A program made the position numbers and the translations under genes. A stretch of DNA of 63,312 nucleotides, counting the filler, from Kipferlia bialata (lineage: Eukaryota): the NCBI GenBank assembly GCA_003568945.1. It is 9 parts of 8 records of this genome, joined end to end, with 100 filler letters (N's around TTAATTAATTAA, not from the genome) between each part and the next. Parts side by side here need not be neighbours in the genome. Positions count along the whole stretch, not along the records: positions 1 to 8,109 come from BDIP01001079.1; positions 8,210 to 15,449 come from BDIP01001080.1; positions 15,550 to 23,546 come from BDIP01001081.1; positions 23,647 to 30,490 come from BDIP01001082.1; positions 30,591 to 36,338 come from BDIP01001083.1; positions 36,439 to 40,885 come from BDIP01001083.1; positions 40,986 to 53,404 come from BDIP01001084.1; positions 53,505 to 61,068 come from BDIP01001094.1; 1 more part is not named here. One strand, 5' to 3'. Below, one piece after another: positions 80 through 62,929 of this stretch. Position 1 is the stretch's first letter, and each line of letters opens with the position of its first letter. The notes under the pieces are model-generated. The model did not search any database, was not told the origin of the DNA, and saw only the letters and a list, made by a program, of their open reading frames with translations.

Positions 80-456
80 GATCAAGCGTGACCACTTCTG
101 TGTGTTTGGTGACCCAACTGGCACAGGGACAGGGGGAGAGTGCATCATGGGACTGATCAAGGTATGTTAGTGTTTGTGTATATATTGTATCCCCCTCCCC
201 CCCTTCACACACACACACACCCTTCTAGCTCTGCGGATGGATCTTCTCTCTGTCATTCTCTTATTCCAGGGCCGTTCTGCCAGATACCTCCCCGACCACA
301 TCCTCCTATCCAAGGGCCTGCCCATCAAGCACGACAGGGCAGGTTAGTATAGTGTATTTACTATATATTGGTGGATAGGTGTATATATATATCATACTCT
401 CTAAGGGCCTGCCCATCAAGCACGACAGAGCAGGTATAGCCTATGTTACTGATATA

Positions 457-493
<37 letters not shown>

Positions 494-1221
494 TCATACC
501 CTCTAAGGGCCTGCCCATCAAGCACGACAGGGCAGGTTGGTAGTATAGTTTAGTGCTCTATATCTGTTTATCATGTTCCCTCTCTCACCCCCCAGGCATT
601 GTGGGTCTCCTCCCCTCCATCAACAAGCCCAACACCCTTGGGTCCCAGATATATGTGACACTGGGACCTGCCCCTATGCTCGATGATAGGGGGAGCATCA
701 TAGGTGGGGATCAGTGTATATATATATAGTATATATGTATGCATGCCTACTATTACACCTAGGAAGACAGGGGGAGTGTCATAGGTAGACAGTGTTGAGT
801 AGCATATACATGTGACCCGATGCATACTACCATCTGGAGTGTTGAGAGGAGTTGCTGAGTGTATTCCCCCCCCCCCCCCCCCCCCCCATTCTCCCATCTG
901 CCGGCAACTCCACTGATCCTCCCCTGAGGGGAGTCCCCTCTATCTCTCTCTCTCTCTCTCTGTATCCCCTCCCCCCTCTGCCTCTCACCCCAGGCAATGG
1001 GCATGGGAGACAGCGCCCAAAAGAGGGGCAGGGGGGTGGATGGGGGCGAGGTCACCCAAGACCCAAAGAGGAGGCCTGGCGAGGAGAGGGGAGGTACCAC
1101 TGGTGTAGTGGTGGACGGACAGCCTGGTGACACCGACCCTACCCCTACCCTGCCCATCCCCACATACTCTCTGCCGAATGGGGCCAGGCTGGGTGCGGCA
1201 GATGAGAAGGTGTTCATTTAG
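80..1221 (+). CDS. PPIL4: Cyclophilin-type peptidyl-prolyl isomerase, PPIL4/CYP59-like (multi-exon, 5'-partial)
   Basis: Spliced exons read IKRDHFCVFGDPTGTGTGGECIMGLIK / GRSARYLPDHILLSKGLPIKHDRAG / IVGLLPSINKPNTLGSQIYVTLGPAPMLDDRGSIIG ... GARLGAADEK. GDPTGTGxGG and GSQxxIT are cyclophilin motifs, and RLGAADE matches the PPIL4 'GRIGADE' segment. The RRM was not found. Confidence 0.72.
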
Positions 1222-1452
1222 CTTGCCACTCCGGCAGACAAGGAGAAGGTGGGAGATGGTTATGCTTCGGCCCCAGTGGATTATAGCCAGTGTCTATGCG
1301 ACTATATTCAAAGCTCGGTATTTGGGATATAGACGTATTTATAGGGTGTAGACACTATGGTTCTCAAGTGGTACGCTTTCAGTGATGCGTTATTGGCTGC
1401 AAGGTAGGTTAATCTAGTTTCCGTCCGGCCCTATCCCCATATTCTCACCCCA

Positions 1453-4400
1453 GTTGACCCTATGGGAAGTGTGTGCCCATGAGACCCTAGTGTCTGACCC
1501 CCTTGCCATAGCCATAGTACAGCTTCTGCCGCAGATGCCCAACGTCACCTCGGTACGTAGACAGATGCTGTTAGATGACTACATTGTGTCTCATTATTGA
1601 TATATGTGCTGCTGACGTTGTGCGTTGGTTGGGCAAGTGACATTTCTTTGCTCATGTCATGGCTCATAGCTCCAACACATCAGTATCTGCCTTCATAGGC
1701 ATATATATGTGTATATTAATTATGTATATCTATAGTATATTTTAGTGTATAATTTAGTAAACTATATATATTTCTCTATAGTCTTTACACTATTCTATAT
1801 GTACCCTTTACTTCTATATAAGCTTACTTATACTGTTAGTATTCCAGTATTCTATTCTATATATTATATTGTGTATATGTTTCATGCCCACATCCAGGTC
1901 ACGTTCAGCAACCTCAAGCTCTCCGAGTCTGCTGGAGTACTCCTAGCCTCCGTATTGCCTGTGATGCAAAGACTGAGAGAGGTATGGGCAGGGGTATCCA
2001 TTAGTGCTCATTCTCTTGCATAACACAGTTGTGTGAAACACATTCCCCTGTGTCACTCTACTACCAGCTCTCTGTCTCGCTGATTGAGGTCCGACAGAGG
2101 GAAGCAGTAGCATTGCAGGCAGCTCTCTCTCAGATGACAGGCTTGGAACAGGTGGGTATACTTGTGTACATTCTCACCACCCAGTTCCCCACCCGTTGCT
2201 CAGAGTCAGCTAACCATTTCCTCCAGCGGATTTCCAGCCCAACTGATCCCCATTGTCACCAAGGCGCTTCCCAAGCTTACGAGACTCACAAGGGTAAGTG
2301 CTATATGTGTATGTATGAGTTATGGTCTCACGTTATTCTCCTGTTCCATCTCAACATCAGCTAACTTTCCATTGGGACAAGAAGAGCAAGAAGGGCACCA
2401 AGGCTCTGTGCGAGGCTCTCATGCTCATGCCACAGGTCAAGAAGGTGCGATATTAGTGTTCCTTGAATTAGTACTATTCCGGGTTCTGATACACTGTTCT
2501 GATGCCAGTTGTCACTCTTTGGCAACCACATCGGTGACTACGGAGCCAAACTGCTAGCACCTGCTCTGGCCCTGATGACTGACCTCACAGAGGTATTACT
2601 GCACGTATATATACCATTGTGAACATGAGTACATACACATTGGCATTGTATTTAACATGGGATGACCTTACACCTAGCTAAGTCTGTATGCCAACTCTAT
2701 CGGGGATGAGGGTGCTAGGGCCCTTCTTCCTGTTCTGGTCAGACTCCCAAAGCTTGAGAAGGTATTCCAATACGTTGATATATGTGTTGTTTCGTGGAGT
2801 GAGCACAAGTTGGTATTTGAGCTGAGGTTCCTGCTTTGGAAGTACGAAGTATTCTGATGTCAGTTCCAGAGGAAAGATAACAACACGAGATTCTACGATG
2901 TCCACTGTATAGTAGGATACTACGGGCCAGATGGGAGGTTGGATGCGTGGCTGAAGGTCAAAGATGGGCTTGACCGCGCTAAGGCTGAGGCTGAGGCTGA
3001 GGCAGAGGCAGAGGCTGAGGCAGCCCTCAACCCAGTGAGCGAGGCAGAGAGTAATGAGGGAGACCCGGCAGAGATATGGAATGAAGCCAGGTTCATAGTA
3101 GAGTGCAAGGACCCGGCGAGACGCAGATGCGATGATCGTGACAACAGAAAGAGCTTTAGGATCTACGAGGGGTCACCATCAGGGGGCAAGAGGGTACGTA
3201 TGATATAGTTTGTTATTCTACCTTGCCTCACCATCAGCTCCTCTGCAAGGGAGTGCGGCTGGAGGGTACCGAGGGCCGAGCCTTTGTCAGGGGAATGACC
3301 AGTCTGACAGAGCTATCAGAGGTACGTCGGCATCAGACATATGATTGTCAGTGGACATTTTTGTATTCAAGCACCACGTACTTGGGATATGGACACGTTT
3401 TCTAATTCCCAGATATACCTTAAGAACTGCACCATCACTGAGGGTGTCGCCGTTGTCCTTGCGGAGAGCCTCACCCAGCTCGCCCTTCTAGACACGGTGA
3501 GTCACTGAGTGATACGCTGATAAATATTTGAGGGTTCGCTCTGCTTGTGAAATTGGAGTTACAAAGCAATCACATACAGTTTCTCTAATTCCTCACTCAC
3601 AGGTCGGACTCGATAACATCACACAGTCAGGTGCCGCATGGGCACATGTCTTTGCGGCCCTCCCTAGTGTGGCCCTTCTGAGAGAGGTTGGATACATACA
3701 TGCTCATGGTTATAATGACATGCTTTCCTGAGATACCTTCTATTGACATACGTTATTGTTAGTGTCAATTGATAGGTTGTTTTGACTCTCTTAGGTACGT
3801 CTCGATCGGAATACACTCTCCAGCCCAGCTGCCCAGTCCCTGTCCAGGGCCATGAAGGAGCTACCCAGAGTTTCAAAGGTTTGTGTTGTCCTTGTGTATT
3901 CAATCCTATCAGTTACTCAGGTTTGGTATAGGATGTTGCGATGAGTGTGCCGGGTTCTGTCACGACTGATTCAGTTTTGCGTGCTGCAGAACGTCATGTC
4001 TGATGCGGACTCTGCTGTCGTTGCCGGTGCTCTACCACAGATGGTGCAACTCACAAAGGTACTCAGTATATATGGATGGGAGGTCACTCCCTCTGTTTCG
4101 AGAATTTGCAATCTCTACCAATAGCTGTTTATCACCAAGATACCAACGTTCATTGTTACTAATCGTACCGTGTCTATTAGGTTCCATTGACACAGCTGGA
4201 ATGGCAGCAAGGATCTAGAGCACTTGAGGTTGCAGCTCTCTGCGAGTCTCTTCCACAGATGCAGAACCTGGACGAGGTTAGACCTTCAACATACCATATA
4301 CTCTTCTATTCCCACTCTCTAACCGGCAGTTCCTCTGGAGCAGTGGAGATGGCCCGGATCTCAGTGTTCCAACGCTAGTCTCTCTGGTCAAGGTCATTTC

Positions 4401-5313
4401 CCGTATACAAGGACTGACAAAGGTATTCTGCTCCCTCCCCTAGCTGTTCATATAGGTTGATTCTTAATACTATATTGCGACAGTCGAGTGAAATAACAGA
4501 GGCATCAGAACACTATTCTGCCTTGTGATAGTCAATCAGTTTCGAACTGTGAAACCCACCTCAGCTGAATCTTCAATGGTCCAAGAGGAGCGTGGTGATT
4601 ACTAGAGCAGTTTGCCTTGCACTCAGCCAGATGCTTGGTCTGACTTCTGTATGTGGATCTTTTGCCTAGTAGATATAGTGTCCATAGCAGAGTGTATTTC
4701 TAGTTCTTGCTAGCATCATTAACTTCGTCTGTTTACTCCAACTGTCTTCCAACTAACACAGGTGTCCATCTCTCACACCTTCCTTGGGGATAAGGGGATA
4801 ACCCTCCTAGCACCAGTGCTCAGCCAGATGACCAACCTCACATATGTACGGTCTATATATATGTGTATATTCAAAAAAAGGCTGAGCAGTCTTATCATCA
4901 CTACATTGTATATGCAGTCACAACAGCCACCGCATCCTTGCTCACCTATAGCTCAGCTTGTATTGCACCCGATTTGGGACTCCAGGGGGCATTGCGCTTC
5001 TCCCTGTGCTGGCTGGGCTTCCCCGGCTCAAGAATGTGAGTAAAAGTAGTACACAATACCACATAAGAGTGAATCTAGTCAAAAGGAGAACTGTCGCCAT
5101 CCCATGTATCACTGATGACAGGCAAACTGTACGGGTCGCAACAAGGTCTTTGAGTATACCTTCGATTCGTACGGCATTCTCAGTCCAAACTCTCCAGAAG
5201 AGAGAGAGAAGGAGTGCGCAAGAATGCTGGAGCAGGTAAAGTTGTACGGTTGTTCGTTTCTGTTCTCTAAACGTGTGTTTGCCCCTCATATCCAGTGTGC
5301 CAATATGAAGTAG
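1453..5313 (+). CDS. Ribonuclease-inhibitor/NLRC3-like leucine-rich repeat protein (about 20 exons; start uncertain)
   Basis: Series of phase-0 exons, mostly 84 nt: 1898-1981, 2068-2151, 2210-2293, 2361-2444, 2509-2592 (LSLFGNHIGDYGAKLLAPALALMTDLTE), 2678-2761 (LSLYANSIGDEGARALLPVLVRLPKLEK) and more. The last exon is CANMK* with TAG at 5311-5313. Confidence 0.85.
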
Positions 5314-5683
5314 AGGACTCCAGACTGGAGTCTACAGTGCTGACCTCGGCTCAGCACACACTGTCATCTGGGCCCGGCTCATCTTGGCGTGTAAAGTCGT
5401 TGTGTCTCAAAACCATACACTGAGTAGAACCTCTGAGCATGCTGATGGTGCCTGGTTCGTTGCTTACTCTATGCTCAAAAGTCTTTAGAGTGTTTTGGAT
5501 GAGCAGTCATACCCCGTCGGCATACATCACTGTATGACTGACCCATCATTAAAGTGAATGGAAAGCGTGTCTACTGAAACTACATATTTATGATTGGGTA
5601 TACTACTTAGAAACTGCATGCGCTATTCCCTTGGGACCTCGCTCTGGCACCAACTATCCTGCTTCTCTCCCTCCCTCCCTCAC

Positions 5684-5716
<33 letters not shown>

Positions 5717-5731: not shown

Positions 5732-8054
5732 TCACAGTACTCTCACAGGTGGTAGGGGGATCCTGAGGTGGGAATAGACTACAATGATGCTATCCCGAGA
5801 CACCAAATGTGACATCCCATCCTTTTACGCACCAAATAGCTACATATACCACGCCTGACATCCAATGTGGGTCCTATTGCTCACAATATACGAATCGATA
5901 ACACATGTAATCACAATACACTCTCTCTCACCTAATCTCCATGCGTGTGCTCACATACTCTGCTAACTCTAATACCCCTCTTATGTACATATCATATGTA
6001 TATCTATCTATATATAAATTCAATATACCTGATCTCCATGCGTGTGCCATGGTTCTTCCCCCCCCTCAGCGTGTTCACCTTGAATGTGCCGTTGTACTGC
6101 TTGACAGTGTAGTAGGCCTGGGGGGAAGAGGGGGGTGAGAGGGTGTGTGTGAGGGAGAGAGGGAGAGGGTGAGAGAGAGAGAGAGAGAGAGGGAGGGAGA
6201 GAGGGAGAGAGGATACAGTGTGTACTATTCCACCACCCACCTTGGTGAGACCGAAACCCTTTCCGAATGAGCGTCTGTTCTGCACCTCGGGTCTATCTGA
6301 GGTGTGGTACATCTGGGGTGAGAGAGAGAGAAACTTTACATATTGGGGACCAATGGACATCATCATGTATCCTTATACACCTGTACTGATAGTAGGAGTG
6401 GTACATCTGGGGGGTGAGGATAAATGCAAATATATATATGAATATAGCATGGCAATACTATAGAATTCTTAACCTTGACTGCGTCCTGCCCCCCCCCCTC
6501 CCCCCCGTCTCTCTACTTCTACAATACATGTGTGGTGATTACTTTGATTGCTTCTTGCAGTTCCACCTCTCTCCCTCTCCATCGCTCTGTACAAGTATAA
6601 AAGATAGATAAAACTATTGTGCATATATATGTGTATATATCCCACCTTGATTGCGTCCTGCAGCTCCCCCTCGTCCTTGAAGCCTATGCCCTCGTCCTCG
6701 ACCAGTATCAACAGCTCCTCAGACCCACCGGACAGGGGGACATTGGTGATGAGGCCCTAGGGGGTGAGGGAGAGGGTGTTGTGATATACTACATATATAC
6801 ATATATATATATACATGTATACTATATATATGTATACTATATCTATATTGCTATATTGGTGATGAGGCCCTGGGGGGGTGAGGAGGGGGTATATATACAC
6901 CCAGAATAATCGCTAAAGACCAACATAATACTACAAGAACACAATTCGAATGTGTATTATATACACCCATCCATACCTTGATTGTGGATGCCTCACTGTA
7001 CTTCCTCGAGTTGAGCATGAGGTCCCTGGGGGTGAGGGGGGAGGTTGGTATTACCACATAGCTAACATACACATGGACTGTACTATGTATACCTGAACAC
7101 GCCTTTTGACATTACATACTATAGACATTATATATGAATATCCAGCACCAACACGTACTGCAGACAAATACACACACACATATATATACGTATAAAGGTA
7201 TGCACCTGAACACGTCCTGTAGCACACAGGGCATCTTGACAGACACACCAGGCAGGGAGGACTCGTCACACGAGGAACGGCCTAGGGGTGAGGGTGTGTC
7301 TACTATCAAACTACATGCGTATACTCACACACCCTATATTCCTATATACCCTGCATACCTGATCTCTCGAACCCAGACAGTATCTCCTCACTGGACATGG
7401 TCATCTCCTCACTGGACTCAACAATGAGGTCAGAGTCACTGGACAGGATGTCGAGGTCTGGGGGTGAGGAAATTGGATACAGAGTGATACAGAGTGACAC
7501 ATATGAATGTATATCTGTACTAAGGTGAATGATACCTGCCGGTGGCCTTGACACTGCTGACTCGAGCATCAGTCTGGTGGGTCTATCTAGCATACCGGAC
7601 TCAGAGGCTGCTAGGTCGCCTGGGGTAAGATATGCTATACATTCGGGAGTACGATACATGGAAGATAGACTGTGGATATGAATAGAAACATACTTCCACC
7701 CCCACCTATGTAGAGCATGAACGTGTGTGTGTGTGAGGCCAGGTCTGCACTCTCTGTCTGCTGGAGCACAGACTGCTGCAGACGCTTGGGCAGTCTGGGG
7801 TGAGGTCCTAGGAGGGTGTGGGTGTGGGTGTGGGTATACATACAGTGCATGGAGACGCTTGGGCGGAACATGGACCTGTCTGCAAATAACCCAATACCAT
7901 ATTCATACATATACACACCCCTCCTCATGAATGGCACCCTCTGACAAACCCTTTTTCTCTCTCTCTATATATGTATATCTGTCTATCTATCAACCAATAC
8001 ATATATTCTTATATACCTCCTCATCTGCTCTGCTGTGAAGGGCCACCCTCTGGC

Positions 8055-28552: not shown

Positions 28553-28761
28553 GCACCCTTACTCACTGACGGCGTCAATTCAGAACCATCATTCTTTAGA
28601 ATACTTAGCATCGTTCATTGGTCGTGACGCTGGTGGTGTATAAGAGTATAAATAGAGTAATAATACCGACGGTCTATTTTTAGATTTCTGAATGAGGGTG
28701 TAGGGAGGGTCAAAAAGGTTGTCTCACATATTGTGCAGCTGTTCTTCACCAACACGCTAAA

Positions 28762-35899: not shown

Positions 35900-37028
35900 A
35901 TGATAGGTGGGGCACCGCTCCGAGTGAGCGAGAGGCTGCTCCTACTTCTGCTGAGGAAGAACCTCTCCAGTAAGGCCGCGTACAGGCTCCAGCCCGATGA
36001 GTTGGAGCTCCTGCAGGAGATAAGGGAGTCCCTAGGGGTTGATGCCTTCTTCCACTACCTTGGTGTGGCGAAGCAGCAGAGGAAGGACCTCAAGGTGAGA
36101 GGAAATTCTGAACCTGCTCTACTCTCTTCTCTCTCCCTCCTTTCCTGCAGTAGGAGCATATATGTAGTGTCCACGAGGCAGTTATCTGATCATAGGTCCT
36201 TCCCCGCGAGACTCGTCAGGAGTACGAGGCCACTGAGGCCACTGAGACTGCAGAGGAGCTAGAGGGAGTGCTGGCTGCATTCCACCAGGTAGAGAGAGAG
36301 AGATAGGGGGGGGGGGGGGAAAAACCCTTGGGACATCANNNNNNNNNNNNNNNNNNNNNNNNNNNNNNNNNNNNNNNNNNNNTTAATTAATTAANNNNNN
36401 NNNNNNNNNNNNNNNNNNNNNNNNNNNNNNNNNNNNNNTCTCTCCTTCCCCTCTCCCCCCCCCCCCCCCCCCTCCTCTCTCACCCCCTAGGCATTGCCTT
36501 CAATGCCATCATCTGCCTGGGTCTGGTCGGCACAGGCACCAACAACGCTAGGTGAATTAGTATACAGTGTATATTGTACTTTACATAGTACTGTATATAC
36601 TATTACTATTCATCTGTCTGGGTCTGGTCGCACAGGCACTAACAACGCTATGTATATATATAAACTATGTATATGTGTGTGTGTTCTCCATATTGTTGCG
36701 CAGGGCCAAGGACTTTTCTCCACATTCTCTCTCTCTCTCTCTAAACCCTTATTCTCAGGGTTGCCCAGATGCTCAGAGACCTCTTTGTCTACTACCCCAC
36801 CAACGACATCATGCTCTTTGCAATCAGATACTCACTCGGCCTGGTCTACGCCGGAAAGGTACGTTAAACCTTATGTCGTACGGTAGCCAGCGTCTCATCG
36901 TCTAATTACCCAGGGTACCGTGCGTATCAACGTGACGCACTCTAGGGGCAGGGTTGTCTCTCCCTCTAGACTGGCATGCATCATGGCCCTGGCCCTGTTC
37001 CTGGCACCCGCGTCTAGGTATGCAGTGA

Positions 37029-37060
<32 letters not shown>

Positions 37061-50564: not shown

Positions 50565-52627
50565 GGATGTATACATCTACATACACACTCACTATACCTC
50601 CTTGTCCTGTGCCATGTGGAGCAGGGTGTGTAGCATACATTCACAGTATGGATCACTGTATATATATACCCATATTCCATATACCTGTGGATCTTGGGAC
50701 ATGTGGAGCAAGGTATCTAGTATACCAGCCTGGAACAGCAGGGCACATGTGGGATCTGGGGGTTAGGCATATATATCACCTAGTTATATTCAGTACACAA
50801 CAATATATATAGGAAAGGTAATAGGTAATCACCCGGAACTTCGCACATACCTGATATAGTGAGTGGCATCAGCATCGTGCACCCCTCCTGTGGACACAGT
50901 GCATAGTGTGTATGGGCCATGTCAACCAAGGATGGGACAAGGTGGGGGGTGAGGGATAGACCTGATATAAAAATATACAAATATATATGTATATACATTT
51001 ATACTAATATATACTAATATATGTATAACCAAGGACTGCACAAGGTGGAGGTGAGGGGTAGACCAGGAGCTGGGGGTCAGAGAACAATAGTAGCAGAAGA
51101 TGTCACAACGAGAGCAATCATTATTAACTGCTTGTATAGTAGTACCTTGCAGCACAGCGTGTATCAGCTGGAATGCGGCCTCAGCCGTCTCTGTCAGCAC
51201 CAGTGCCTCAGGGAGGGTATCTCTATCAAAGGGCACTGCCTTCTCTATGTCACCCTCATCAACAACCTCCACATCCTCTGTGTCTAGATACTCCATGAAC
51301 TCGTCTGCCTCTGCCTCACCCTCTCCACCCACCTCTCTCTCCCCTCCCTCCTCCCACGTCTCCATGGACATACCACTATCTTGGTCAATAGGGTCCATAC
51401 CACTCTCTTGGTCAGTAGTGTCTACACTGGTGTCAGCATCAGACTCGGAAGTTGTCTCCTGCAACATCTCTCCTGGCTCACTCTGCTGCACCATGTCTCC
51501 CAGTCTGCCTAGGAATGATATAGTGCCACCTGAGGGTACAACCACATCTGTGTCATCTTCCATGTCAGTCTCTGACACCTCCACACTCTCACACTCAACT
51601 TTTCCCTCTCCCTCTCCCTCACAATCACTACCCTCACCACCAACCTCAGTCTCCATGAGTCCACCCAGGGCACCTGTGAATGATATGATACCCCTCGGTG
51701 TCTCAACAGCCAGTGTGTCAACAATTACATCCCCTCTCTCCCTCTCTCCCTCTGACCCATCACTCAAGCTAGACAGAGCACCCAGGAAGGATATTGTACC
51801 AGCAGGTGATACACTCTCTCCCGTCTCTACCTCTATGCCCTCACCCTCCACTGATGTTGGTCTGTCCAAGCATAGGTATGCCCTCTCCTCTGACACTGAC
51901 TGACAGACAGTGTTGATGCAGTCGACAAGACCTGAAGATGAGGAGTACACTCATACAGGAGTCTATATAGTCATAAGTGGTAGGACATATGACCCACACA
52001 TACACATAGTGTATATATAGTGAATGAGAGATATAAATGAGCAACGCTACGTATATACAACATTCATGGTATATACAATCATGACTAGAGACGCTAAGAA
52101 CCCATACCTTCATCTAAGAGTAGATGGGAGTAGGAAAGATTACCAGAGCCCATGGGAGTGTCTACGTCTCCTGATAATTAGAATTAGTTTGAATACCTAT
52201 AGAGAGTCACTAGAAAATATTGAAAGTATATACCTGCAGTAGCACTCATATAGTATGATACTGTACCACTCTAATGATACACTTCCTATATCAGGACACC
52301 TCACAGCATGGCAATCAGACCATTGTTGTATGTATACCTTGCACCTCCACCTCTGCCTCTGTGTGCACTATGTGTGTCAGCAGGGACAGAACACTGATGG
52401 GTGAGGGCAGTGACTAAACAGAGAGATATGAAACACACAACTACCATAGCACATGGATAGGTATTGGTCTGACATATGCAAATGGATATGTACCTCCTGA
52501 CCACGTCCCAGTTGTGTGGCCCCTGTGCCAGTGTCTTGGCTGCACTCAGCAGTAGGGGACACGCCTCACCCAGGAGGGAGGACTCTGTCGCAAGAGTACC
52601 TGGGGGTAATATTCGATTGAATTGTAT

Positions 52628-52668
<41 letters not shown>

Positions 52669-52990
52669 ATATGCCTCACCCAAGAGGGGGGAGGGGGTGG
52701 GGGTAGACTCTGCTGGTAAGGGAGGCAAAGGTATTCCCCATATTCACAAGGAGATTGTATACCCTATGGGTAAAGCTATTGATACACATTACCTATCTGT
52801 GTCCCCATGTATCCCACTATGGCATGCACTGTGTCTTGGCATGACTGTCTACCCTATACGTATATATATATATAGCATGTATATGTACTGTATATATATA
52901 TATTATACCTATATGACCCACTATGCCATGCACTGTGCCTGGGCATGTCTGTCTAGACCTCAGGGCACAGACATAGAAGGGGAGGGCTAG
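45784..52990 (-). CDS. Large hypothetical multi-exon protein (helical repeats plus an acidic low-complexity exon near 51100-51950)
   Basis: Many minus-strand exons with canonical junctions (RPALDSLSSALSTHGHWDRVAYALLDM, LAEFTHMGERLETFFE, last exon YRYQRSAVLVDSMDY*) plus the 342-aa ORF 50922-51950. The 5' limit is unclear. Confidence 0.5.
46801..47200 (-). repeat. Array of five copies of an exon end plus donor (...ATGGTG|GTGAG), about 100-bp period
   Basis: CTCACCACCAT on + at 46801, 46901, 47001, 47107 and 47170. Confidence 0.9.
49711..49828. repeat. Intronic tandem repeat, 18-bp unit CTATAGTACTACTATAGT, about 6 copies
   Basis: Read directly; the unit is built from the short palindromes CTATAG, AGTACT and ACTATAGT. 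Confidence 0.9.
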
Positions 52991-53504
52991 GGGTAAGTAC
53001 TGATATAGTACATGCACTAATATAGATAATTATACTGATACATTAACATACAAGGGGAGTGAATAGGACCAGTATACATAATAAAAGAGGGGGAGGGCTG
53101 GAGTGAATGCAGAAGGAGTTACCGATGGTACTGTACTAGGTATATATTGGCACATACATAGAGGGGGAGGGCTGGAGTGAATGGGAAGAGATACACACAG
53201 TGGCGAATACATAAAACACATACTATATGGTCACTGCTCATGTGAATGTATATGTGTCGGAGGGGAGGAGGGGGGATACAGAGACGGAGAGAGGGTGTGT
53301 GTGTGAGAGAGAGAGAAGTGGGGATAGGCTAGTGGTCAACGATATACAGGAGAGAGACACATGTCGGGGGGGGGGGGGGGGTGAGAGACGGACTGCCACA
53401 CTTGNNNNNNNNNNNNNNNNNNNNNNNNNNNNNNNNNNNNNNNNNNNNTTAATTAATTAANNNNNNNNNNNNNNNNNNNNNNNNNNNNNNNNNNNNNNNN
53501 NNNN

Positions 53505-53553
<49 letters not shown>

Positions 53554-53616
53554 ATGGGCTGAACACTCACACGTTTCATTGGTCACTCACTATCCATACA
53601 CAGCTACAGACACGTA

Positions 53617-55128
53617 CTTGTGCAGGATGTGCTGCTGGATGGGGGTGGGGCAGAGGTGCAGCCTGGAGGCCACGGGGGGAGAGGCCAGGAGCTCGTCAAT
53701 GTTGGGCCGGGAGGCACTGTTACGGGAGAGAAGGGCAGAGACCACATTCCTAGGGGTAAGGGGGACAGGAGGGAATGAAACTGGATATAACCATGATTAA
53801 TAACACGTACTTGAGGTCATCGCTGTACATCTTGGGCAGTGCAGAGTAGCGTCCTGCAAGCACCCTGGACGCCAGACCCTTGATGTCCCTGGCCTCGAAG
53901 GGGTGTCTGAAGGTGCACATCTCGTACAGCAGCACACCCAGACTCCACATGTCAGACTGGGGGTGAGGGACTGGAGAGAGAGACTGCACTTGGAGGAAGA
54001 AGGCAATGGTACACCAACCTTGTTGTTGTAGGGGCTGTTCTTCCATATCTCTGGGGATATGTAGTACGGGGTGCCAATGGACGTCTTGGCAAGCGAGTTC
54101 TCCTGCTTGAGCAGCTTGGCCACGCCTGGGGTGAGGAGGGGAGAGACATGTCCAGATAGAAGGATTGAATACAGAGACTATGATAGGATATCATAATAGT
54201 GGATACATGGCCACGCACCCAGGTCCCCAATCTTGACCATGGACTTGTCAGCACTCAGGAAGATGTTGGCAGACTTGAGGTCTCTGGGGGTGAGGAAGGG
54301 TGAGAGAGAGGTAGGGAAACTACAATACACTTCTGACGCATTGAGAATACTGGATACGGGTATACACACACAGAAACACTCATGCTTGTGCATAGATAAC
54401 ACCATACGAGAGCACACACATCTAACCTGTGCAGAATGTGGTGCTTGTGCAGCGTCCTGATACCCACACACAGCTGCAGGAACAGAGGCCAGATCTCATC
54501 CTCAGAGAAGGGATACCTCTTCATCTTCCTGAGGGTGAGGGCTTATCAGAGTGGGGGAGAGGGGACAATAAGTGAGATACGGTAACACAAATAGACTGAT
54601 ACCAGGTGACCGCCACACATGATATGCACGCACCTCGTCTCAATCAGGTTTTGGAGGTCACCACCAGACGCAAACTCTGTCACAATGTAGATCTTGTCAT
54701 TCTCGACAAACGACTCGTAGTACCCGACAATGTTGGGGTGGAACACAGAGGCCAGAATACGGATCTCATTCAGAGCCTCCTCCCTCTCCTTACGCTTCAT
54801 GTACTCTGGAGTGAGCACGTACACACGGGGAATACATATAAGTAGAGACATACATACAGCAGGCGAGACAATAGGGGTGAAGACTGAGCATCAACTGCGC
54901 CATTAAGAAGAGAGACAGCAGTACGTACTGACGTTGATCTCCTTGATAGCATAAACTTGGCCATCGCTTGACCTGGAGGCCTTGAAGACAGAACCATAAC
55001 TGCCCTTCCCCAAGAACTTCTTAATCTACTGTGAGAGACTGTCCAGTTTCTTACAGATGCCTCTGATCCGAGTGAGAAAGATAGAATTCATAGAGTGAAT
55101 CACTTACCTCGAAGTCGGACAACGGCAT
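53617..55128 (-). CDS. NIMA-related (NEK) serine/threonine kinase, NEK1/CNK2-like (3'-partial)
   Basis: MPLSDFE / [22 protein letters not shown] / [22 protein letters not shown] / [11 protein letters not shown] / VKIGDLGVAK / [10 protein letters not shown] / YNNKSDMWSLG. Confidence 0.95.
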
Positions 55129-55658
55129 AGTGACTTGGGCCCTTCACGCTCGCAATAACAGTACTAATAGGGCTCCTTGTAAGCTATATACGCTCTTTCA
55201 ATCTCTGTAAGAGGCACAAACAGCACTAGAAGCGATGTCCAGCTTTCAAATTTCAGAATTACTGGACTTTTTTGCCATTCTCAGTTTTTTTGTTGGACCC
55301 TAGACCCTTTGAATGTCTATGTATATCAAAAACAACAAAAGGGTTCGATAGTGTCCCACAACTGGGACCCAGAACAGAGTTGACTGCTCTCTCTCCAAAG
55401 GGCCGCACTACTGTTTCCTGTATTCTGAGAAGCCTGTGGCTTTGTTTCTGGCAGACCCGTTAGCTAGTGTCTTGGGAGCGGCCGCTCTGGAGCATTAGTT
55501 GATCTCTCTTCATCAGACACAGTCAACTATTGTCTTGGGCCACTGTACTATCTCTTCACTTAGAGGATTCTGTTCGATATTGGAGTTGGGGTCTGTGAAG
55601 TTCTGTACCCTGGGTATCACTAGGCGAGTGTAGTGGGCCAGGTCGTTGGTCTCTCCCG

Positions 55659-58600
55659 ATGGACAACTTTCTGTTCCATGTCAAGTCTCTAGTCGTGTTT
55701 GACAAGAGTCTCAGCGAGGAATTCCACACCAGGCACAAGAAGGTGGGTCATTATGAAGGTCATTGGATGTGCAGACTCGCATTTATGTGAGTGGCATCAT
55801 TCGAGTGTCTGCTGTCGGCTGTTGTTACTATCTGTTGTCGTGTGCTGCTCTCTCTATTCCCACTCACCCAGCTTGTGTTTGCATACCCCCTTGATGGACA
55901 CGAGAGCCCTGTGCTGCAGGGTATATGGGACAAGCAGGGTGAGTGTCCTATGGTGCTGCTTTGTATACTCCTGTTTGGAGTACAATGATACGACAACGCT
56001 CATTCGGCACCGATACACCCTACTCTATTCTGGGGTCACTCTCCCACCATTATCTCCGTCATATACCTCACCTTAGTGTGTCTTGTACCCTTAATGTACA
56101 CTTAGTGTACCATACTCACGCCAGTGCGTCTCTATGAGGCACTGGACGGTCTATCCGACACCCTAGGGACTGGGTCTCTGCAGACCTTTGAGTCTGGGTC
56201 AGACGTCACCCTCTGCGGGGCACATGGTAGGGAGAGGGTGTCTACACACATCATGACCGGTATATTAGTCTCACTGTCTCTCTCTGTGCTCATACTTTAC
56301 CCCCAGGCACCTGCTGTGTGGCGCTTTGTCTGGCCAAGCCTAGCCACGAGGAGTCTGAGGAGTGTACGTACCCAGAGGCAGGGCACAAGTACAGACAGGT
56401 GGGGGGAGCTGTGTACATAGTAGTCTGACACTCTGGCACATATCAGTATATATATATATGTATATGACTATATATACATCTCACTATTAGGACGGCAAGG
56501 CTGCCCCGAACACCAAGGAGGACACCAGCCGGCAGGGGTCCCCCAAGGAGGGGGCAGGGGAGGAGGAGAGGGAGGACACATCCTCCGAGGATGCTCTCTT
56601 TGCCGCCAAGGCATCCCCCCCTCTCTCCCTGGCTGACGTGCTCCCAGGCCTGGCCGACATCCCCCCACCCCTAGTCAAGGCTGTGCTGCGCCATCTGCTG
56701 GACTGCATGTGTCTCTACCTAGGGGGGCCCCTGGATGTGTGTGTGAGGACTATGGGGGTGCATAGCATGAGGCGTATCCTGCCAGCGCTGTGCCTCGGGT
56801 GGATACACGGGTGGGTGGACGGTGTATATACGGTGTGATACAAGGAATGCACAGGTTGTTGCTCCCACCCCCCCTTCTCACCCCCTCTGACTGTAGCGTT
56901 GAGACCCAGGGTCTGTCTGTGGCTGATCTGCTAGGGGGCGCCACACCAAAGGTATCAGAGAGTCACAGCTGGTGTATGAGGGTGATATACACAGTCAACA
57001 AGTGCACTGACATACTAGGGAGGGGCCAAGCTGGCTGCTGCAGACGCACCTGTGTATGGAGAGGCCTTTGCATGTGCCTGTGAGGCCTGTCTAGGTATCT
57101 CTCTCTATCACTACATATGCTGTATGTGGTACCCTCTGTACCTACCCCCCTCACCCCAGTCCCCGGTGTGATGGCTGCGGCTGTCCATGTTAATCACCAG
57201 CTACTGGCTGTGGGTGGTGTGCAGACATCGCAGTACATGGCTGTGGACGCACTGTACAGGCGACACATCCCTCTGACTGGGCACAGACAGGTGGGAGAGG
57301 CAGAGGAGGAGGAGGAGGGGCAGGGGGTGGGTGACATTGGGGGAGAGAGGGCAGCCTGGGTGAGGGAGAGGCTGGTAGGTGCTCAGATCATACCAAGGCC
57401 CACCCCCACCCCCACCCCCTCTGAGGCCGAGCTGTCCTACGGCACAGGGCATGGGAGGAGGAGCAGGTTGGCCAGTGCCCTTCCCTCTCCCCCTCTGCCC
57501 TGCTACCTAGAGCTGGGCCTGCCCCCTATGGATGTGGAGGAGGAGGGGGGAGAGGAGAAGGCAGAGCCGGAGGACACAAAGGCATACCCACCAGTCAGAG
57601 ACTGCCTCCTGCCCACATCCCACCTCAACCCGGCATATCAGGTGGGGGGCTGACGACTATCTGTATGTAGAGTCCCTTATGTGTATTCTTGTCTTACCAC
57701 CAGGTTGTTTGTGACGTGGGGTGCCGAAACGAGGGGGGGTCCCCCCCGAAGAGAGACAGGGACAGAGAGACCAGGTAGGCACTGGGCAATGATACTATCC
57801 TTGTTATCTCTATTTATCCTCTCCCACTCAATATACCCATATAACAGATACACCCGCACTGTGGTGGTCAGACAGGGTGAGCCAGAATCCGATGACCCGA
57901 CTGAGAAGGGGACCAAGGCGAGTGTGTGGAGGGACGGGGGAGGCGACACCTCAGGCCACGTGCACAGGGTGACAGGCAGGTTCATCCACACCCACACCCC
58001 CTATGCAGTGTCAGAGGATGTGTCAGACAGACCGGTTAGGGGGAGGCGGCCCCTGGAGATCCCAGTCTGCATGGCCTATCCTGACTGTGGGTCATCCACC
58101 TTGGAGGCTACCCCGGCTGGACACTCTGCCCTGCCCAGGGGTGCTGTCTCCCCCACATCTGTGATGGAGGAGGATGGGTACCAGTACATCCAGTCCTCCC
58201 CTGCACCCGGTGCCAGTGATGGCTTCACCACCCCTCCCCTCCAGCACCAGTCCCCTATGTCCCAGAGGGTGCCTGGGAGTGGGCGCACCCCCTCGCACAA
58301 GCCCCACACCCCCTCGGGTCTGGGTGTACATAGCAACCGCATGGCAGGGCAGGTGGGCGGAGAGGCCGGCACCCCATCCCTCACAGTGGGTGAGGGGGAA
58401 AAGGATGAGAGGCTCTCTCGGTACCAGGCCTCCCCTTTCCTGGGGGGATCAGATGATGACACAGAGACAGAGGGCTCAGAGTCTGGGAGTGAGGGGGAGA
58501 GCACTGAGGAAGAGGAGAGCGAGGAGGGGGATGTTGGACAGGAGGATGAGACCACCACCCCCACCCTTGGCAACTCCACCCCTGTGACCGACCCCACCTC

Positions 58601-59783
58601 CCCCCACACCCCTGTGTCTGAGGGGTCTGAGGCAGTGCAGGTGGCACCCAGAGCCACCCTGCTCAACCAGACTGTGCTGGTGAGACAGACACCCCTGAGG
58701 GCAAGGGGGAAGGCGAAGGGGAGGAGAGAGAGGAGGGGCAGGAGGAGAGGGGTGTCCAGACACGGTGCCACCCCGGCCACTGCGTCCCCTCTTTCTCTCT
58801 CTGTCGGACCCCAGGCCCTGCTCCCTGTGGATGTCTCTCCTGTGCCGTCCAGACTCATGACTGTTAGGGTGACGGTGGAGAGAGAGAAGGCCTCTAAGGG
58901 GAGGCACAGGGCGGGGCCGGGGCACACCGAGGGGGAGTATGTGCCTGTGGGTGGGGTGGTCGACCTTGTGCTGCTGGTCAAGGACCCCTCTTCCACTGTT
59001 GACATGGATGGTCAGACACCCTCAGTGGCAGTGGAGCAGGACAGGGAGAGAGAGAGGGAGACTGTGTGGGACGGTGTCGTGTCTCTGTGCCTTCAGAACC
59101 TGGGCATGATAGCCAGTCAGAGTGTCAGGCCTGGTCTGATGGGTGTGTGTGACGTGGCTGCGGCATGTGGCATGTCGGTACCAGAGGCAAAGGCAGATAG
59201 GGACGGCGCCAGGCACTTCTTCGGAGTGCTGCCCATAGGCACCTCCAGTGCCAGACACAGACCCCTTGCTGTGCACTCCTCCACCCCTCCCCTCTCACCT
59301 GTGCTGCTGTCCAGTCAGTCTACGCTGTCCACATCTCTGCCCACCCTACCCGAGCACGACATCCTGCACAGGTCAGGCATATACACCCAGGGGGGCAGTC
59401 TGACCAGGATGGAGAGGGTAGGGCCCTCCACTCTGCAGAGCAGACTGTCTCTCTATGATGCAGCCCACCCCATGCTGTCTGCCGCAGTGCTTCTAGGGGA
59501 CATTGGCACAGAGGCGGACCAGGGGAGGGAGAGAGAGAGGGTGCACTCCGTCGCTGTGTCTGTGCCTGCCACTGAGCCATCCTGTGCATACCAGAGGGGC
59601 ACAGACTCACTGCTGGGGACAGGGGCCAGGCCTAGCGTCAGTTGGGTGGTGGGTAGCAGGGGGAGGAACGGACGGACGGGCCTCTACCTACACGACGGGG
59701 CATGCATCAACATTGTCGATGCTGTAGATAGGGCCACTAGGGATGATGCTGTGCTGTTCAATGTTCTGGGTGGTGGGGCATAG
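55659..59783 (+). CDS. CCZ1: CCZ1-like tri-longin protein (Mon1-Ccz1 Rab7 GEF subunit) with long insertions
   Basis: N-terminal SLVVFDKSL...KKLVFAYP...VRLYEAL; LVKAVLRHLLDCMCLYLGG; AAVHVNHQLL; C-terminal SWVVGSRG...INIVDAVDR (cf. CCZ1 YWVVGKK...NLIEVNEEV). The HPS4 paralogue is not excluded. Confidence 0.65.
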
Positions 59784-60041
59784 ACCCTCTCCTTACCCCA
59801 GGTCATGAGGTTCATGGTGTACCCTTGTCATTGTGGTTGATGTTGTATGTGTGTTAGTGTATTATTCGTGTAAATGAACCCTGTCCTCTTTCTTGTTGGA
59901 CCATGTAGATACCAAGCCATCTATTCACATACATATACACTAAACACTAACACCTTCTGACAAAGGAGGTGCCACAGAGAGAGTCTCGACCTAGAAATGG
60001 TATACACACAGAGGGACGCTACTGTGTCTAGTACACACCCT

Positions 60042-60120
60042 CTACTGAGCAGCCTTGAGCTGATCGTTCAGCTGCCGGATCTGCTCGTTCTTGGTCCTTG
60101 GAGTGAGTGAGTGAGTGAAG

Positions 60121-60163
<43 letters not shown>

Positions 60164-60936
60164 GAGAGAGACACTCTCCATACTTGAGCATGGCCTGCAG
60201 GTTCTTGAACTGGGCTGAGGCAGCCACGTTCCTGGTCAGGGCCTTCTCAGCAGCAGCCTTTGCGGCAGTTGCCTCGTCAGCCTGGGTCTGCACAGAGGCC
60301 AGTTGCTGAGGGTGAGAGTCTAGAGCGGAGAGACTCAAAGAGTGACTGTGCATGTACAAGAATATGGACACACCCTTACCTGCTTAAGCAGGGCCACCTC
60401 CTCCCTGGCAGCACCGGCGTCCCCTCCCATGGACTCTGGGGGTGAGAGGAACACACATATAGACTGCTACGTGTAATACTCCAAGACCCAGTCTCGGGAG
60501 GGAAGAGGGTAGTGCACAGCACATTTGGGCACGACCACAATAAGAAGCATATGACTACTCCCCCACCTAGCACCACAGGGGCTGCCCCCTCGACCGATGA
60601 CCTGAAGGCCAGCGTGATACCGGCGGCCTCGGCCTGTGGGTAGAAGGGGAGCACATGGTACAGTGGAAGGAATATATACAACTTGCAGTTAACAGAGTCA
60701 ACTCTATATATGTATATATACACCTGTGCAATAAGGGCTAGGACTGGCTGCATTGCGGCCTGGGAGAGTGTCTCCAGCTCCGTTGACAGGGCATCACGCA
60801 CATTGCCTGTGGTTAGGGTATACAGGAATAGCGTACACAATGAGGCAGACAGTGATAAGAGCATGTAATATACACTCACTCTTGAGGGTTGCCATTCCGT
60901 TGACAACGTCCTCCTCTGTGAAGATCTCCTCCCCGG
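60042..60936 (-). CDS. LZTFL1: LZTFL1/BBS17-like coiled-coil protein (5'-partial)
   Basis: EEIFTEEDVVNGMATLK / ..STELETLS..LIAQ/AEAAGITL and SAQFKNLQAMLK/TKNEQIRQL match LZTFL1 (DTFTxDEV, LFxQAE, AYRNMKEILTKKNDQIKDL). Confidence 0.8.
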
Positions 60937-61212
60937 CAGACAGACTGAGGGTGAGGGTGAGGCATATGTATATAGGGGCAGATAATGGCTGAGGGTGCAG
61001 CAGAGAGGGAGAGATGTGGTGGAGGGAGGGAGGGGGGGGGGGGGGGGGGGCAAAAACACCACACACTANNNNNNNNNNNNNNNNNNNNNNNNNNNNNNNN
61101 NNNNNNNNNNNNTTAATTAATTAANNNNNNNNNNNNNNNNNNNNNNNNNNNNNNNNNNNNNNNNNNNNTTTTTTTTTTTTTTTTTACCCCCCCCCCCCCC
61201 CCCCCACCCCCA

Positions 61213-62929
61213 GGAGCTGAAGCCGTCCTCGCCCTCCAAGTGCTCCATCGACACAGACGACATGTACTTCCACTACGCCATATACAACAAGGTAGGCAGA
61301 CACATGCGATACATGGGAGTATATACGCATTGCGAATGAAGGTATTCATTCCCCCTCACCCCCCAGGTCATCTACCTGACCCTGTGTCCCAAGTAGTCTC
61401 ATATGACATGTATCTCATATCTCATATATTCATATATATGTGTGTCCCATATATCTCTCTCTCTACCCTCAGGTCATCTACCTGACCCTCTGCCCCAAGT
61501 CATACCCCAGGGCACTGGCATTCAAGTTCCTGGAGGACGTCAGGTATCCTCAGTGGTGTGATATGTCCAGAGGATATATATATAAGAACGGGGACGTAGT
61601 GTATGTATGTAGATAGTATTGTGTATATGCATACACACCCTCACCCTCAACCAGGGCCTCCTTTGAGACCGAGCATGGTGTGTATATGTTATGATCACCC
61701 TATTGTATATATAGTATTGTATACACTCTACATACCCTCACCCTCACCCCCAGGGACTCCTTTGAGACCGAGCATGGGGTGTATATTAGAGATAGTATTC
61801 ATTTGTATGTATTTATGTGTATATGCACATACACCCTCACCCCAGGGACTCCTTTGAGACCGAGCACGGGGGAGAGGTGGCCACAGCAAACAAGCCATAC
61901 CAGTACGTGGTAATTCACATATGTAATATTACATTTCAGTATCAGAATCAGTATCAGATACTGATACAGCCAACAAGCCATACCAGTACGTACATGGTAA
62001 TTCACATATATGATATATATGTATTGAGCATGTCTTATGTTCCCTTCTCCCCCTACCCCAGATTTGTACAGTTATATGACACCCCAGATATACACACATA
62101 TGTAACATATATATTATCTCTTACTTATGTCTCTATCCTCACCCCCCAGGTTTGTGCAGTTCTATGACACCATTGATGACATTGCAAACAACTACCCAGT
62201 GTCAAACAGGGAGCAGACGCAGGTATATCCATCATGGTATATTTACATTTATATACATGCATGTACCAATGTGTAAACTGGTAATGATATTGTAAACCAG
62301 TGTCCAACAGAGAGCAGACGCAGGTATGTATGTATATCCATCACTTTGTGTATGCATATTATTGCACGAGTATTTGTGTTTCTGTGTCTGTATCTATCCG
62401 CCCTCTCAAAATATATATGTATATATATTATTGTATGCGTCTGCCTGTCTTCTCATCCCAGGGCCAGCTCGAGGCCCTCTCTGAGGAGTTGCAGTCGGTG
62501 CAGAGGGTCATGGTGTCAAACCTCAGCGACATCCTAGGTACCCCTTCGCATATGAGTAATGATGGGCATGTCCCCTCTTACCCCCCAGGCCGTGGCGAGG
62601 TCATCGGCGAGGTGTCCAACATGTCCCAGCACCTGGTGGAGTCCAGTGCTAAGTTCGCTGACCAGGCCAGGTACATACGTGGATATGCACTCTCTCGCTG
62701 TCTCTCTAGCACCTAGCACCTCCTGTTACTTACCCCAGGGCCCTTGACCTGCATGCCCTCATACTCTCCCTCTCTCTGTCTCTCTCTCGAATCTATATAC
62801 CCTGTTCTCTATTGCATCCCTGACCCCAGGGCCCTTGACCTCCATGCCCTGTGGCGTGAGTGGAAGACAGTTGTCATCATCGTGGCCGCATTCCTGCTCT
62901 TTGTCATGCTCAGATACTTTGTGTTCTAA
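61213..62929 (+). CDS. SEC22: Longin R-SNARE SEC22 (5'-partial)
   Basis: KCSIDTDDMYFHYAI / VIYLTLCPKSYPRALAFKFLEDV / VATANKPYQFVQF / LSEELQSVQRVMVSNLSDILGRGE and a C-terminal TM segment VVIIVAAFLLFVMLRYFVF*. Confidence 0.93.

What the first reader, a model, noticed from the sequence alone, without database searches (positions are those of the whole stretch)
312..62830. Pervasive 'splice-site echoes': introns stacked with diverged copies of their own exon ends
Seen: many introns carry 15-45-nt, slightly mutated copies of the adjacent exon end together with its splice site, separated by TA/CT-rich spacers. Donor echoes include 312-342 copied at 403-433 and 505-535; GT at 17630/17724/17790; 37256/37353/37447; and 40490/40590/40690. 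Acceptor echoes include 17998/18118; 39752/39835/39903; 41150/41233/41315; 61370/61468; 61650/61750/61840; and 62735/62825. In the cases examined, the frame-preserving donor is the 5'-most copy and the frame-preserving acceptor is the 3'-most copy. The echoes are half-exons that mostly carry one splice site. Inference: this may be an undescribed mode of intron growth by serial junction-spanning duplication. It also implies a spliceosome that skips near-perfect proximal decoy sites in short introns, through exon definition, recursive splicing, or regulated unproductive splicing coupled to NMD. I do not know of a description of this pattern.
Basis: partly seen in the sequence, partly recalled or inferred. 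Interest (0 to 1): 0.88.

Follow-up and report, generated by a model that had tools for sequence, protein, structure and literature searches.

The report
Exon-end stutter in Kipferlia introns
In this stretch of the protist Kipferlia bialata about a quarter of introns carry copies of the neighbouring exon end with its splice signal, spaced about 95 bases apart and skipped in the one spliced transcript examined; they account for most of the long introns here and likely arise by DNA repair or recombination rather than serving a splicing function.

Summary
The echoes are real. The window is K. bialata. 48 of 188 hand-curated introns carry a copy of the adjacent exon end (chance 0.75). Spacing is about 96 nt, and each copy adds about 95 nt of intron. 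DNA contigs span the copies tested at even depth, and one spliced contig uses only the outermost sites in four echo-bearing introns. The pattern is described already: 'exon stuttering' on bird dot chromosomes and human junction-spanning minisatellites; this scan also noted it in a sea-urchin gene. What differs here is the frequency (25% against 3.4%), the tight spacing and an asymmetry: the exon side is 90-95% identical while the intron side is near background from base +3, yet GT, AG and the branch point mostly survive. Echoes also occur at stop codons, and none in 5.5 kb of intergenic DNA. Recursive splicing fails its test. Best reading: exon-anchored repair or unequal exchange copying from a diverged allele (0.45). 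Plain sister duplication with fast intron decay is the main rival (0.30). No second haplotype was available to decide between them.

The parts
312..537 (+). Donor family: real exon end with GT at 343; echoes with GT at 434 and 536
5930..6877 (-). Minus-strand gene with donor echoes (5930, ~6474, ~6540) and acceptor echoes (6394, 6855)
12758..14972 (-). Minus-strand gene with donor and acceptor echoes in 4 of 12 introns
17605..17806 (+). Donor family GT 17630/17724/17790; the first echo is a young ordinary tandem copy with the intron side still alike
17996..18153 (+). Acceptor echo (AG ends 18002) and real acceptor (18122)
19807..19931 (-). Acceptor echo in KIPB_007228; the public gene model uses the outer acceptor (19833)
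21305..21411 (-). The homologous acceptor echo in the neighbouring RPA2-like paralogue
36510..38138 (+). Rpn1-like gene (name recalled from the translation): echoes in 5 of 6 introns, including GT 37279/37372/37471
38151..38386 (+). Stop-codon echo: last 49 nt of coding sequence copied at 38280-38328 and in part at 38362-38386, with no splice site involved
39738..39926 (+). Acceptor family AG 39756/39839/39908
40480..40720 (+). Donor family GT 40533/40625 plus a degraded third copy
41018..41047 (+). Probable donor echo of an exon end lying before the contig start; the spliced contig matches 23 letters and then differs
   Evidence: tables 5, 5c
41140..41343 (+). Acceptor family AG 41154/41237/41319; the spliced contig uses 41319
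41360..41491 (+). Donor 41386 used; echo (26 of 26 exon letters identical, different donor) skipped
42091..42216 (+). Donor 42115 used; echo (24 of 24 identical) skipped
42686..43464 (+). 714-nt intron 42721-43434 with three donor-side and four acceptor-side echoes, removed whole in the spliced contig
45906..46061 (-). Donor echo, 38 of 38 exon letters identical, spacer (77 nt) longer than the remaining intron (50 nt)
46797..47200 (-). Four donor echoes in a ~100-nt tandem array whose spacers are still alike (secondary amplification)
47221..47501 (-). Two acceptor echoes whose branch points differ at the free position
48049..50614 (-). Echo-rich gene (6 of 9 introns); some junctions uncertain
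61360..62850 (+). Longin/SNARE gene: echoes in 5 of 6 introns (AG 61366/61472; 61654/61753/61845; 62738/62829; two donor echoes)
62907..62990 (+). Stop-codon echo of the SNARE gene

Best explanation
The echoes are head-to-tail copies, about 95 nt apart, of an exon end plus its splice signal; they are skipped in the one spliced contig examined and are likely made by DNA repair or unequal exchange that starts in the conserved exon and copies from a diverged allele. Shown: the copies, their spacing, intron lengthening by about 95 nt per copy, use of the outermost sites in four introns, and identity that is high in the exon part and falls to near background just past GT or AG. Inferred: a break near an exon end is repaired by invading the homologous chromosome, where only the exon still matches. 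Synthesis runs 40-90 nt into that allele's different intron, cannot re-anneal, and is end-joined back to the resident exon end. The outer copy becomes the working site and the resident one is left as the echo. Misaligned exchange between echo and exon, and ordinary sister duplication, then add copies. Selection keeps only products that hold one splice site and no whole exon, which would set the spacing (exon part 15-60 nt plus most of a ~87-nt intron). Also inferred: the spliceosome pairs sites across the ~80-nt GC-rich exon, or reads the AT-rich spacer as intron, so the inner sites stay silent and the echoes decay without a function.
For: Asymmetry: exon side 0.87-0.95 identical near the junction; donor +3..+12 at 0.20-0.57 against background 0.27-0.51. 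The 13 donor echoes with <=1 mismatch in 20 exon letters (6 of 260 mismatched) match at only 40 of 78 positions +3..+8. Of 55 real-echo pairs, 44 have intron-side z<2; simulation needs about 0.35 substitutions per site per copy for that, against about 0.07 on the exon side, whereas the 7 pairs that do align differ only about twofold (39 of 306 against 8 of 126). Signals are kept while free positions change: GT 35 of 36, AG 25 of 30; branch point kept in 20 of 23 with the free base changed in 8 of 20; the 29 echo donors that differ from the real one still score above interior GTs (p=5e-4). Substitutions: 90 of 170 synonymous, codon positions 43/29/98, p=0.013 against neutral echo plus exon drift. 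In 7 of 29 single-echo introns the spacer is at least as long as the whole remaining intron. Echoes at stop codons, none in 778 intergenic windows. The spliced contig has 0 other letters against the real exons, so echo sequence is not in that mRNA. K. bialata has Spo11, four Dmc1, five Rad52 and PolQ entries and no Ku70 in the supplementary table of PMC8516963. Crossovers favour exons in a hypervariable fungus (PMC4209137).
Against: No second haplotype was seen: DNA run X1 shows no other letters and no extra exon contig at >=90% over 40986-43611, so allelic diversity is assumed, not shown. With one copy per family the synonymous excess is only p=0.052, and the branch-point counts shrink to 13 of 16 kept and 5 of 13 changed. 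Private changes in multi-copy families look neutral (20 synonymous, 36 not) and shared ones synonymous (9 to 1), which plain duplication plus exon drift also predicts. In the paralogue pair the echo kept 22 of 26 letters while flanking intron diverged more (one case), so exon-derived sequence may simply mutate more slowly in place. Differing echo donors score below real donors (0.63 against 1.28, p=0.046). Detection by exon similarity favours well-kept exon parts.
Confidence: 0.45

Rival explanations
1. Plain local tandem duplications of about 95 nt from the sister chromatid, filtered by selection. In a genome of ~80-nt exons and ~87-nt introns almost any such duplication spans a junction, and only single-junction ones survive. 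The intron side then decays much faster because it is AT-rich and slippage-prone.
For: Intron sides keep faint homology overall (10 of 58 pairs at p<=0.05 against 11 of 172 same-gene controls, KS p=1e-9). Some units are ordinary tandem copies (17630, 46797 array, 39738). Private changes are neutral-like and shared ones synonymous. The paralogue pair has exons 154 of 162 identical with an intron at background level (7 of 45 null scores as high). Microsatellites are abundant.
Against: Needs a 5-10-fold rate gap, whereas alignable pairs show about twofold (biased low by selection of alignable pairs). Predicts intergenic copies, and 0 of 778 windows were found. Does not explain kept branch points with a changed free base (no single decay rate among the five tried fits both) or spacers longer than the parent intron (7 of 29). 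A flap or mismatch-repair defect is not indicated: Fen1, Dna2, Msh2 and Msh3 are listed for K. bialata.
Confidence: 0.3
2. Old duplications whose exon part is repeatedly refreshed by short gene conversion from the real exon about 95 nt away, while the spacers diverge freely.
For: Explains the sharp fall in identity at the homology edge and perfect exon parts beside unrelated intron sides, and the stop-codon echoes.
Against: Identity does not fall steadily with distance: the stretch between branch point and AG differs in 14 of 20 while the more distant branch point is kept in 20 of 23. In the paralogue pair echo B keeps the letters of exon A at both sites where its own exon changed.
Confidence: 0.15
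3. Echo sites are kept by selection as working alternative, decoy or stepwise (recursive) splice sites, for instance for unproductive splicing coupled to NMD.
For: GT kept in 35 of 36, a little more than about 0.07 decay per site predicts; echo donors score like real ones (5.19 against 5.80, p=0.26). Use of an echo would give a stop in the insert or a frameshift in 52 of 57 cases.
Against: No AG|GT enrichment (22 of 26 against 134 of 162; exon starting GT 4 of 22 against 28 of 166) and no acceptor signal at donor echoes. Same anatomy at stop codons. The one spliced contig holds no echo sequence. Echo acceptors are weaker than real ones (6.55 against 8.12, p=0.037).
Confidence: 0.07
4. Short-read misassembly, or tandem collapse of two haplotypes.
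For: Fragmented short-read assembly; spacing close to a read length; run X1 may be the source of this DNA.
Against: Separately assembled contigs of X1 run across the copies with 0 other letters at even depth 341-422 (41018-41858, 42040-42715, 42811-43062, 43115-43356). The copies differ from each other and have unique spacers.
Confidence: 0.03

Closest known systems
Exon stuttering on avian dot chromosomes (Hron et al., bioRxiv 10.1101/2025.09.16.676548; seen: abstract, passages, second part of the Discussion; supplements not seen)
   Same: The lateral part of an exon with its donor or acceptor is copied into the adjacent intron as imperfect tandems; sources lie at the exon border; the exon part is short (median 36 bp there, 15-62 nt here); the coding region is intact; introns are rich in simple repeats; repair or meiotic strand invasion is proposed there as speculation.
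   Different: 3.4% of dot-chromosome introns against 48 of 188 here; 1-44 copies over a median 1.75 kb against 1-4 per side at about 96-nt spacing; there most stuttering is purely intronic and tied to GC-rich microchromosomes. The passages I saw do not report the exon/intron asymmetry, a synonymous bias or a splicing test. Length polymorphism is shown there and untested here.
Human junction-spanning minisatellites: F7 IVS7 37-bp VNTR, also CBS, LAMIN B2 (100-bp unit), PDGF (81-bp unit), 6-16 (PMC1557585; seen: abstract and passages)
   Same: The first unit spans the exon-intron border; downstream pseudo-donors are intact; the most upstream donor is used (only that one in F7, LAMIN B2 and PDGF).
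   Different: Single loci with near-identical units, donors only in the cases named. Here both donors and acceptors, in 16 of 24 gene models, with spacers mostly unalike.
Recursive splicing ratchet points (recalled)
   Same: Many donor echoes read AG|GT inside a long intron.
   Different: AG|GT is no more common than at any exon end here, there is no branch point before it, and acceptor echoes mostly lack GT.
Intron gain by tandem duplication of an AG|GT exon segment (Rogers model; recalled)
   Same: Local duplication of exon sequence with a splice-like site.
   Different: That model makes a new intron and puts the upstream-exon copy at the intron's 3' end. Here an existing intron is lengthened and the copy carries its own GT about 95 nt from the donor.
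Exon-biased crossing-over in hypervariable Schizophyllum commune (PMC4209137; seen: passages)
   Same: Recombination anchored on conserved exons when non-coding DNA is too diverged, which is the premise of my preferred mechanism.
   Different: Clean crossovers, not duplications; high diversity is not shown for K. bialata.

Membership tests
Exon stuttering (Hron et al. 2025) | Edge of an exon with its splice site copied into the adjacent intron, source at the border | tested here: met
   66 of 73 hits reach the junction; GT 35 of 36, AG 25 of 30
Exon stuttering (Hron et al. 2025) | Strictly local, coding sequence intact | tested here: met
   0.75 hits per 188 against other genes' introns; 22 of 24 models have an open frame; spliced contig
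Exon stuttering (Hron et al. 2025) | Massive arrays and mostly purely intronic repeat clusters | tested here: not met
   1-4 copies per side; 22 of 1107 intron-interior windows hold a repeat, 20 of them in introns that carry echoes (the 31570 echo read by eye)
Exon stuttering (Hron et al. 2025) | Extensive within-species intron length polymorphism | not testable with these tools
   one DNA holder; no Kipferlia-like locus in two metagenome scans
Junction-spanning minisatellite (F7 type) | Outermost site used, pseudo-sites silent | tested here: met
   four echo-bearing introns in one contig; minor use cannot be seen in contigs
Junction-spanning minisatellite (F7 type) | Near-identical monomers along the whole unit | tested here: not met
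   44 of 55 real-echo pairs have intron-side z<2; only 4 have z>3
Recursive splicing | Intronic branch point and AG directly followed by GT | tested here: not met
   26 AG|GT donor echoes score -13 to 4.0 as acceptors; no enrichment of AG ends or GT starts
Recursive splicing | Intermediates or lariats in raw RNA reads | not testable with these tools
   only contigs were served
Intron gain by tandem duplication | New intron begins with downstream-exon copy and ends with upstream-exon copy | tested here: not met
   positions of copies show the opposite layout
Exon-definition splicing | Sites paired across the exon in preference to the nearest sites across the intron | tested here: inconclusive
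   outer sites used although inner pairing would give introns >=45 nt in 56 of 57 cases; echo-bearing exons <=148 nt but not significantly shorter; an AT-content rule (spacers 68% AT) or scanning would fit as well

The most novel reading that the evidence does not exclude
K. bialata introns are a stacked record of past alleles. Exon-anchored repair from diverged homologues repeatedly grafts another haplotype's splice site and intron end next to the resident one, is the main source of long introns in this genome, and is tolerated because a reduced metamonad spliceosome with short introns defines exons rather than introns.
Probability: 0.35. Interest if true: 0.82.

Novelty: new variant of a known kind. 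Interest (0 to 1): 0.6.

Why it matters
Protists with short introns are proposed to splice mainly by intron definition (PMC2397502, section 12). Here intact inner sites that would give normal-length introns are passed over, in an organism with 87 of 174 surveyed spliceosomal proteins detected (PMC6679479). If the window is typical of the 124,912 introns reported (PMC5874029), which is an extrapolation from 188, tens of thousands of natural competing-site pairs would allow a genome-wide test of how splice sites are chosen. The pattern also gives a stepwise, countable mechanism of intron lengthening and extends exon stuttering, whose cause is unknown, from birds to a protist. It is an annotation hazard too: my ab initio runs called echoes as mini-exons.

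Tried and rejected
No whole genome was held, so nothing genome-wide was tested. RNA and DNA contigs could be laid only on 40986-43611; the other echo families have no read-level check. Runs X3 and X4 laid nothing, which is no evidence. The run search listed no holder on record as RNA; X2 is treated as spliced only because it joins across GT..AG introns. Metagenome scans for another haplotype: none for one exon; 12 distant kinase loci for another, of which I read 1 (L001) and it is not Kipferlia-like. The homologue search with the LRR exon found nothing. The first self-trained gene finder over-predicted and was discarded. Rejected: recursive splicing; refresh from spliced mRNA, because GT, AG and branch points are kept; present coding use of echoes; a flap or mismatch-repair defect as cause (genes listed); a link between a gene's echo share and its intron AT content or length (rho 0.14 and 0.05, 18 genes). 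Known faults in my models: LRR and AT3a frames are not clean and were left out of codon tests, as was g4c; exon 20072-20116 is absent from the public model; 41018-41047 is probably an echo, not an exon; some junctions at 48-51 kb are uncertain. Rows dropped: 7 of 73 hits not reaching the junction; echoes without GT or AG in register for the signal tests; pairs with more than 4 mismatches in 18. Literature searches found no description of this pattern in Kipferlia or another protist; the library lacks most subscription papers, and the bird preprint's supplements and one scanned supplement of PMC8516963 were not seen.
Full report
Source. The window is nine pieces separated by N-linker spacers. 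An exon at 20162-20743 matches KIPB_007228 of Kipferlia bialata at 98% over 86% of the query, and that protein continues with the two window exons at 19833-19612. K. bialata is a free-living fornicate with 124,912 GT-AG introns in a 51-Mb short-read assembly (PMC5874029, passages and section 12). Pfam confirms a kinase, a glutamate-cysteine ligase and a longin exon; the names Rpn1, RPA2, Vps26 and SelB-like are recalled from translations.

Is it there? Yes. All ten families are present, two with shifted coordinates. An unbiased scan found 82 local repeat pairs, nearly all at exon ends on either strand. I built 24 gene models with 188 introns (22 have an open frame). Using exon-only queries, 48 of 188 introns hold a copy of the adjacent exon end at score >=24; 66 of 73 copies reach the junction. 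Chance is 0.75 per 188, and the far end of the same exon hits in 3 of 147 and 5 of 147. Spacing is 63-165 nt, median 96.5, quartiles 87-104.5. Echo-free introns have median 87 nt (n=140). 46 of 65 introns over 150 nt carry echoes and 0 of 107 up to 125 nt do, partly because a copy needs room. Length rises 94.7 nt per copy. Genes differ strongly, from 0 of 10 to 5 of 6 introns (permutation p=0.0002).

Artefact? Unlikely. Contigs of DNA run X1 cross the copies between 41018 and 43452 in several overlapping or adjacent pieces with no other letters at depth 341-422. X1 may be the source of this DNA and the reads are short, so long reads remain desirable.

Which sites are used? One 1762-nt contig of run X2 lies on eight exons in consecutive pieces with 0 other letters. 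It uses acceptor 41319, donors 41386, 42115 and 42721 and acceptor 43434, the outermost site each time, and removes a 714-nt intron holding seven echoes. Three skipped donors score at or above the real one. Its 5' part matches 41018-41040 and then differs, so that segment is probably one more skipped echo. Contigs hide minor forms, and only this stretch was tested. The public model of KIPB_007228 also uses the outer acceptor.

Recursive splicing and function. Exons with donor echoes end in AG no more often than others (22 of 26 against 134 of 162), exons with acceptor echoes start with GT no more often (4 of 22 against 28 of 166), and AG|GT echoes lack an acceptor signal. Echo use would give a stop in the insert in 43, a frameshift in 9 and an open insert in 5 of 57 cases. 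The same copying occurs at stop codons (38198 and 62929, weakly 12692, of 17 ends) but in none of 778 intergenic windows (5.5 kb) and at none of 13 start positions. The boundary that matters looks like coding against non-coding, not the splice site as such.

The unexpected feature. Identity is 0.87-0.95 in the exon part next to the junction and near background a few bases into the intron. Thirteen donor echoes with 6 mismatches in 260 exon letters match at only 40 of 78 positions +3..+8. Yet the signals persist: GT 35 of 36, AG 25 of 30, branch point 20 of 23 with its free base changed in 8 of 20, and changed echo donors still resemble donors more than interior GTs do. Simulation needs about 0.35 substitutions per site per copy to erase the intron side, five times the exon-side figure, while the seven pairs that still align differ only twofold. 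Exon-side differences are 90 of 170 synonymous (p=0.013 against a neutral echo plus drift in the exon). Seven of 29 single-echo introns have a spacer at least as long as the remaining intron, including one with 38 of 38 exon identity. At the Rpn1-like stop the coding copy has two silent changes in 49 nt (read) while the untranslated copy has 12- and 17-nt block indels. This is how two working alleles differ, rather than how a copy decays.

Against that reading. With one copy per family the synonymous excess is p=0.052 and the branch-point numbers are small (13 of 16 kept, 5 of 13 changed). Private changes in arrays are neutral-like and shared ones synonymous, as plain duplication predicts. Faint intron-side homology exists overall. 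The paralogue pair shows an echo outlasting its flanks in place (22 of 26). No second haplotype was found in X1 or in two metagenome scans.

Mechanism. I prefer exon-anchored repair or unequal exchange templated on a diverged homologue (0.45) over sister duplication with fast intron decay (0.30), conversion refresh (0.15), functional echoes (0.07) and artefact (0.03). The supplementary table of PMC8516963 lists Spo11, Dmc1, Rad52, Brca2, PolQ, Fen1, Dna2, Msh2 and Msh3 for K. bialata and no Ku70, and the main text reports NHEJ absent from metamonads. That makes the route possible and does not show it. One-ended invasion is described in PMC4888836 (passages); its failure into a duplication by end joining is my inference from recalled work. 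How the inner sites are ignored is also inferred: pairing across the exon (median 81 nt, 59% GC), a rule based on AT-rich spacers (68% AT; plant analogy recalled) or 5'-to-3' scanning as in F7, which by itself would not explain choice of the last acceptor.

Known relatives. Exon stuttering on chicken dot chromosomes has the same anatomy in 190 of 5,572 introns; human F7, CBS, LAMIN B2 and PDGF minisatellites span junctions with silent pseudo-donors. My ten searches found no account for Kipferlia or other protists.

Verdict. Real, common and spliced around. It works like exon stuttering but fails two of its marks (massive arrays, mainly intronic clusters) and is untested for polymorphism, so I file it as a new variant of a known kind. 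Interest 0.6: the frequency, the fixed step and the asymmetry are surprising, and they make splice-site choice in a short-intron protist directly testable.

Noticed in passing
window 19612-20665 and 21098-23180 (-): KIPB_007228 looks chimeric: an unrelated 5' exon joined to a copy of the last two exons of the neighbouring RPA2-like gene (154 of 162 nt identical), with a possible relic exon at 20072-20116.
   Followed up: partly
window 50851-51069 (-): A strong acceptor at 51069 leads into an exon copy that closes with the frame lost, while the frame-keeping acceptor near 50963 lacks a branch point; possibly an acceptor shift caused by an echo, or a 6-nt microexon.
   Followed up: partly
window 50245-50359 (-): An acceptor echo at 50359 with a short exon part scores higher (10.1) than the frame-keeping acceptor at 50290 (6.4); it is below the threshold of my count.
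   Followed up: partly
window 19080-19195 (+): Three branch-point-plus-AG motifs in series with little or no exon copy; such acceptor-only repeats are missed by exon-based screens.
   Followed up: no
whole window: The branch point is fused to the acceptor: CTNA(C/T) lies in the last 18 nt of 153 of 188 introns, recalling the fused signals of diplomonads.
   Followed up: partly
window 1898-3878 (+): Leucine-rich-repeat-like gene with mostly 84-nt exons and no echoes in 10 introns.
   Followed up: no
window 43274-43449: Summed contig depth of run X1 reaches 41,000-59,000 over this AT-rich spacer, so its words recur very widely in the run.
   Followed up: no
window 49712-49828: Near-perfect 18-nt tandem array (6.4 copies) inside an intron, with one N.
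   Followed up: no
window 23731-30398 and 53590-60944: Echo-poor regions (1 of 36 and 0 of 19 introns) beside echo-rich ones; the clustering is unexplained.
   Followed up: partly
window 8110, 15450, 23547, 30491, 36339, 40886, 53405, 61069: N44-linker-N44 spacers join separate pieces, so genes are not continuous across them.
   Followed up: yes
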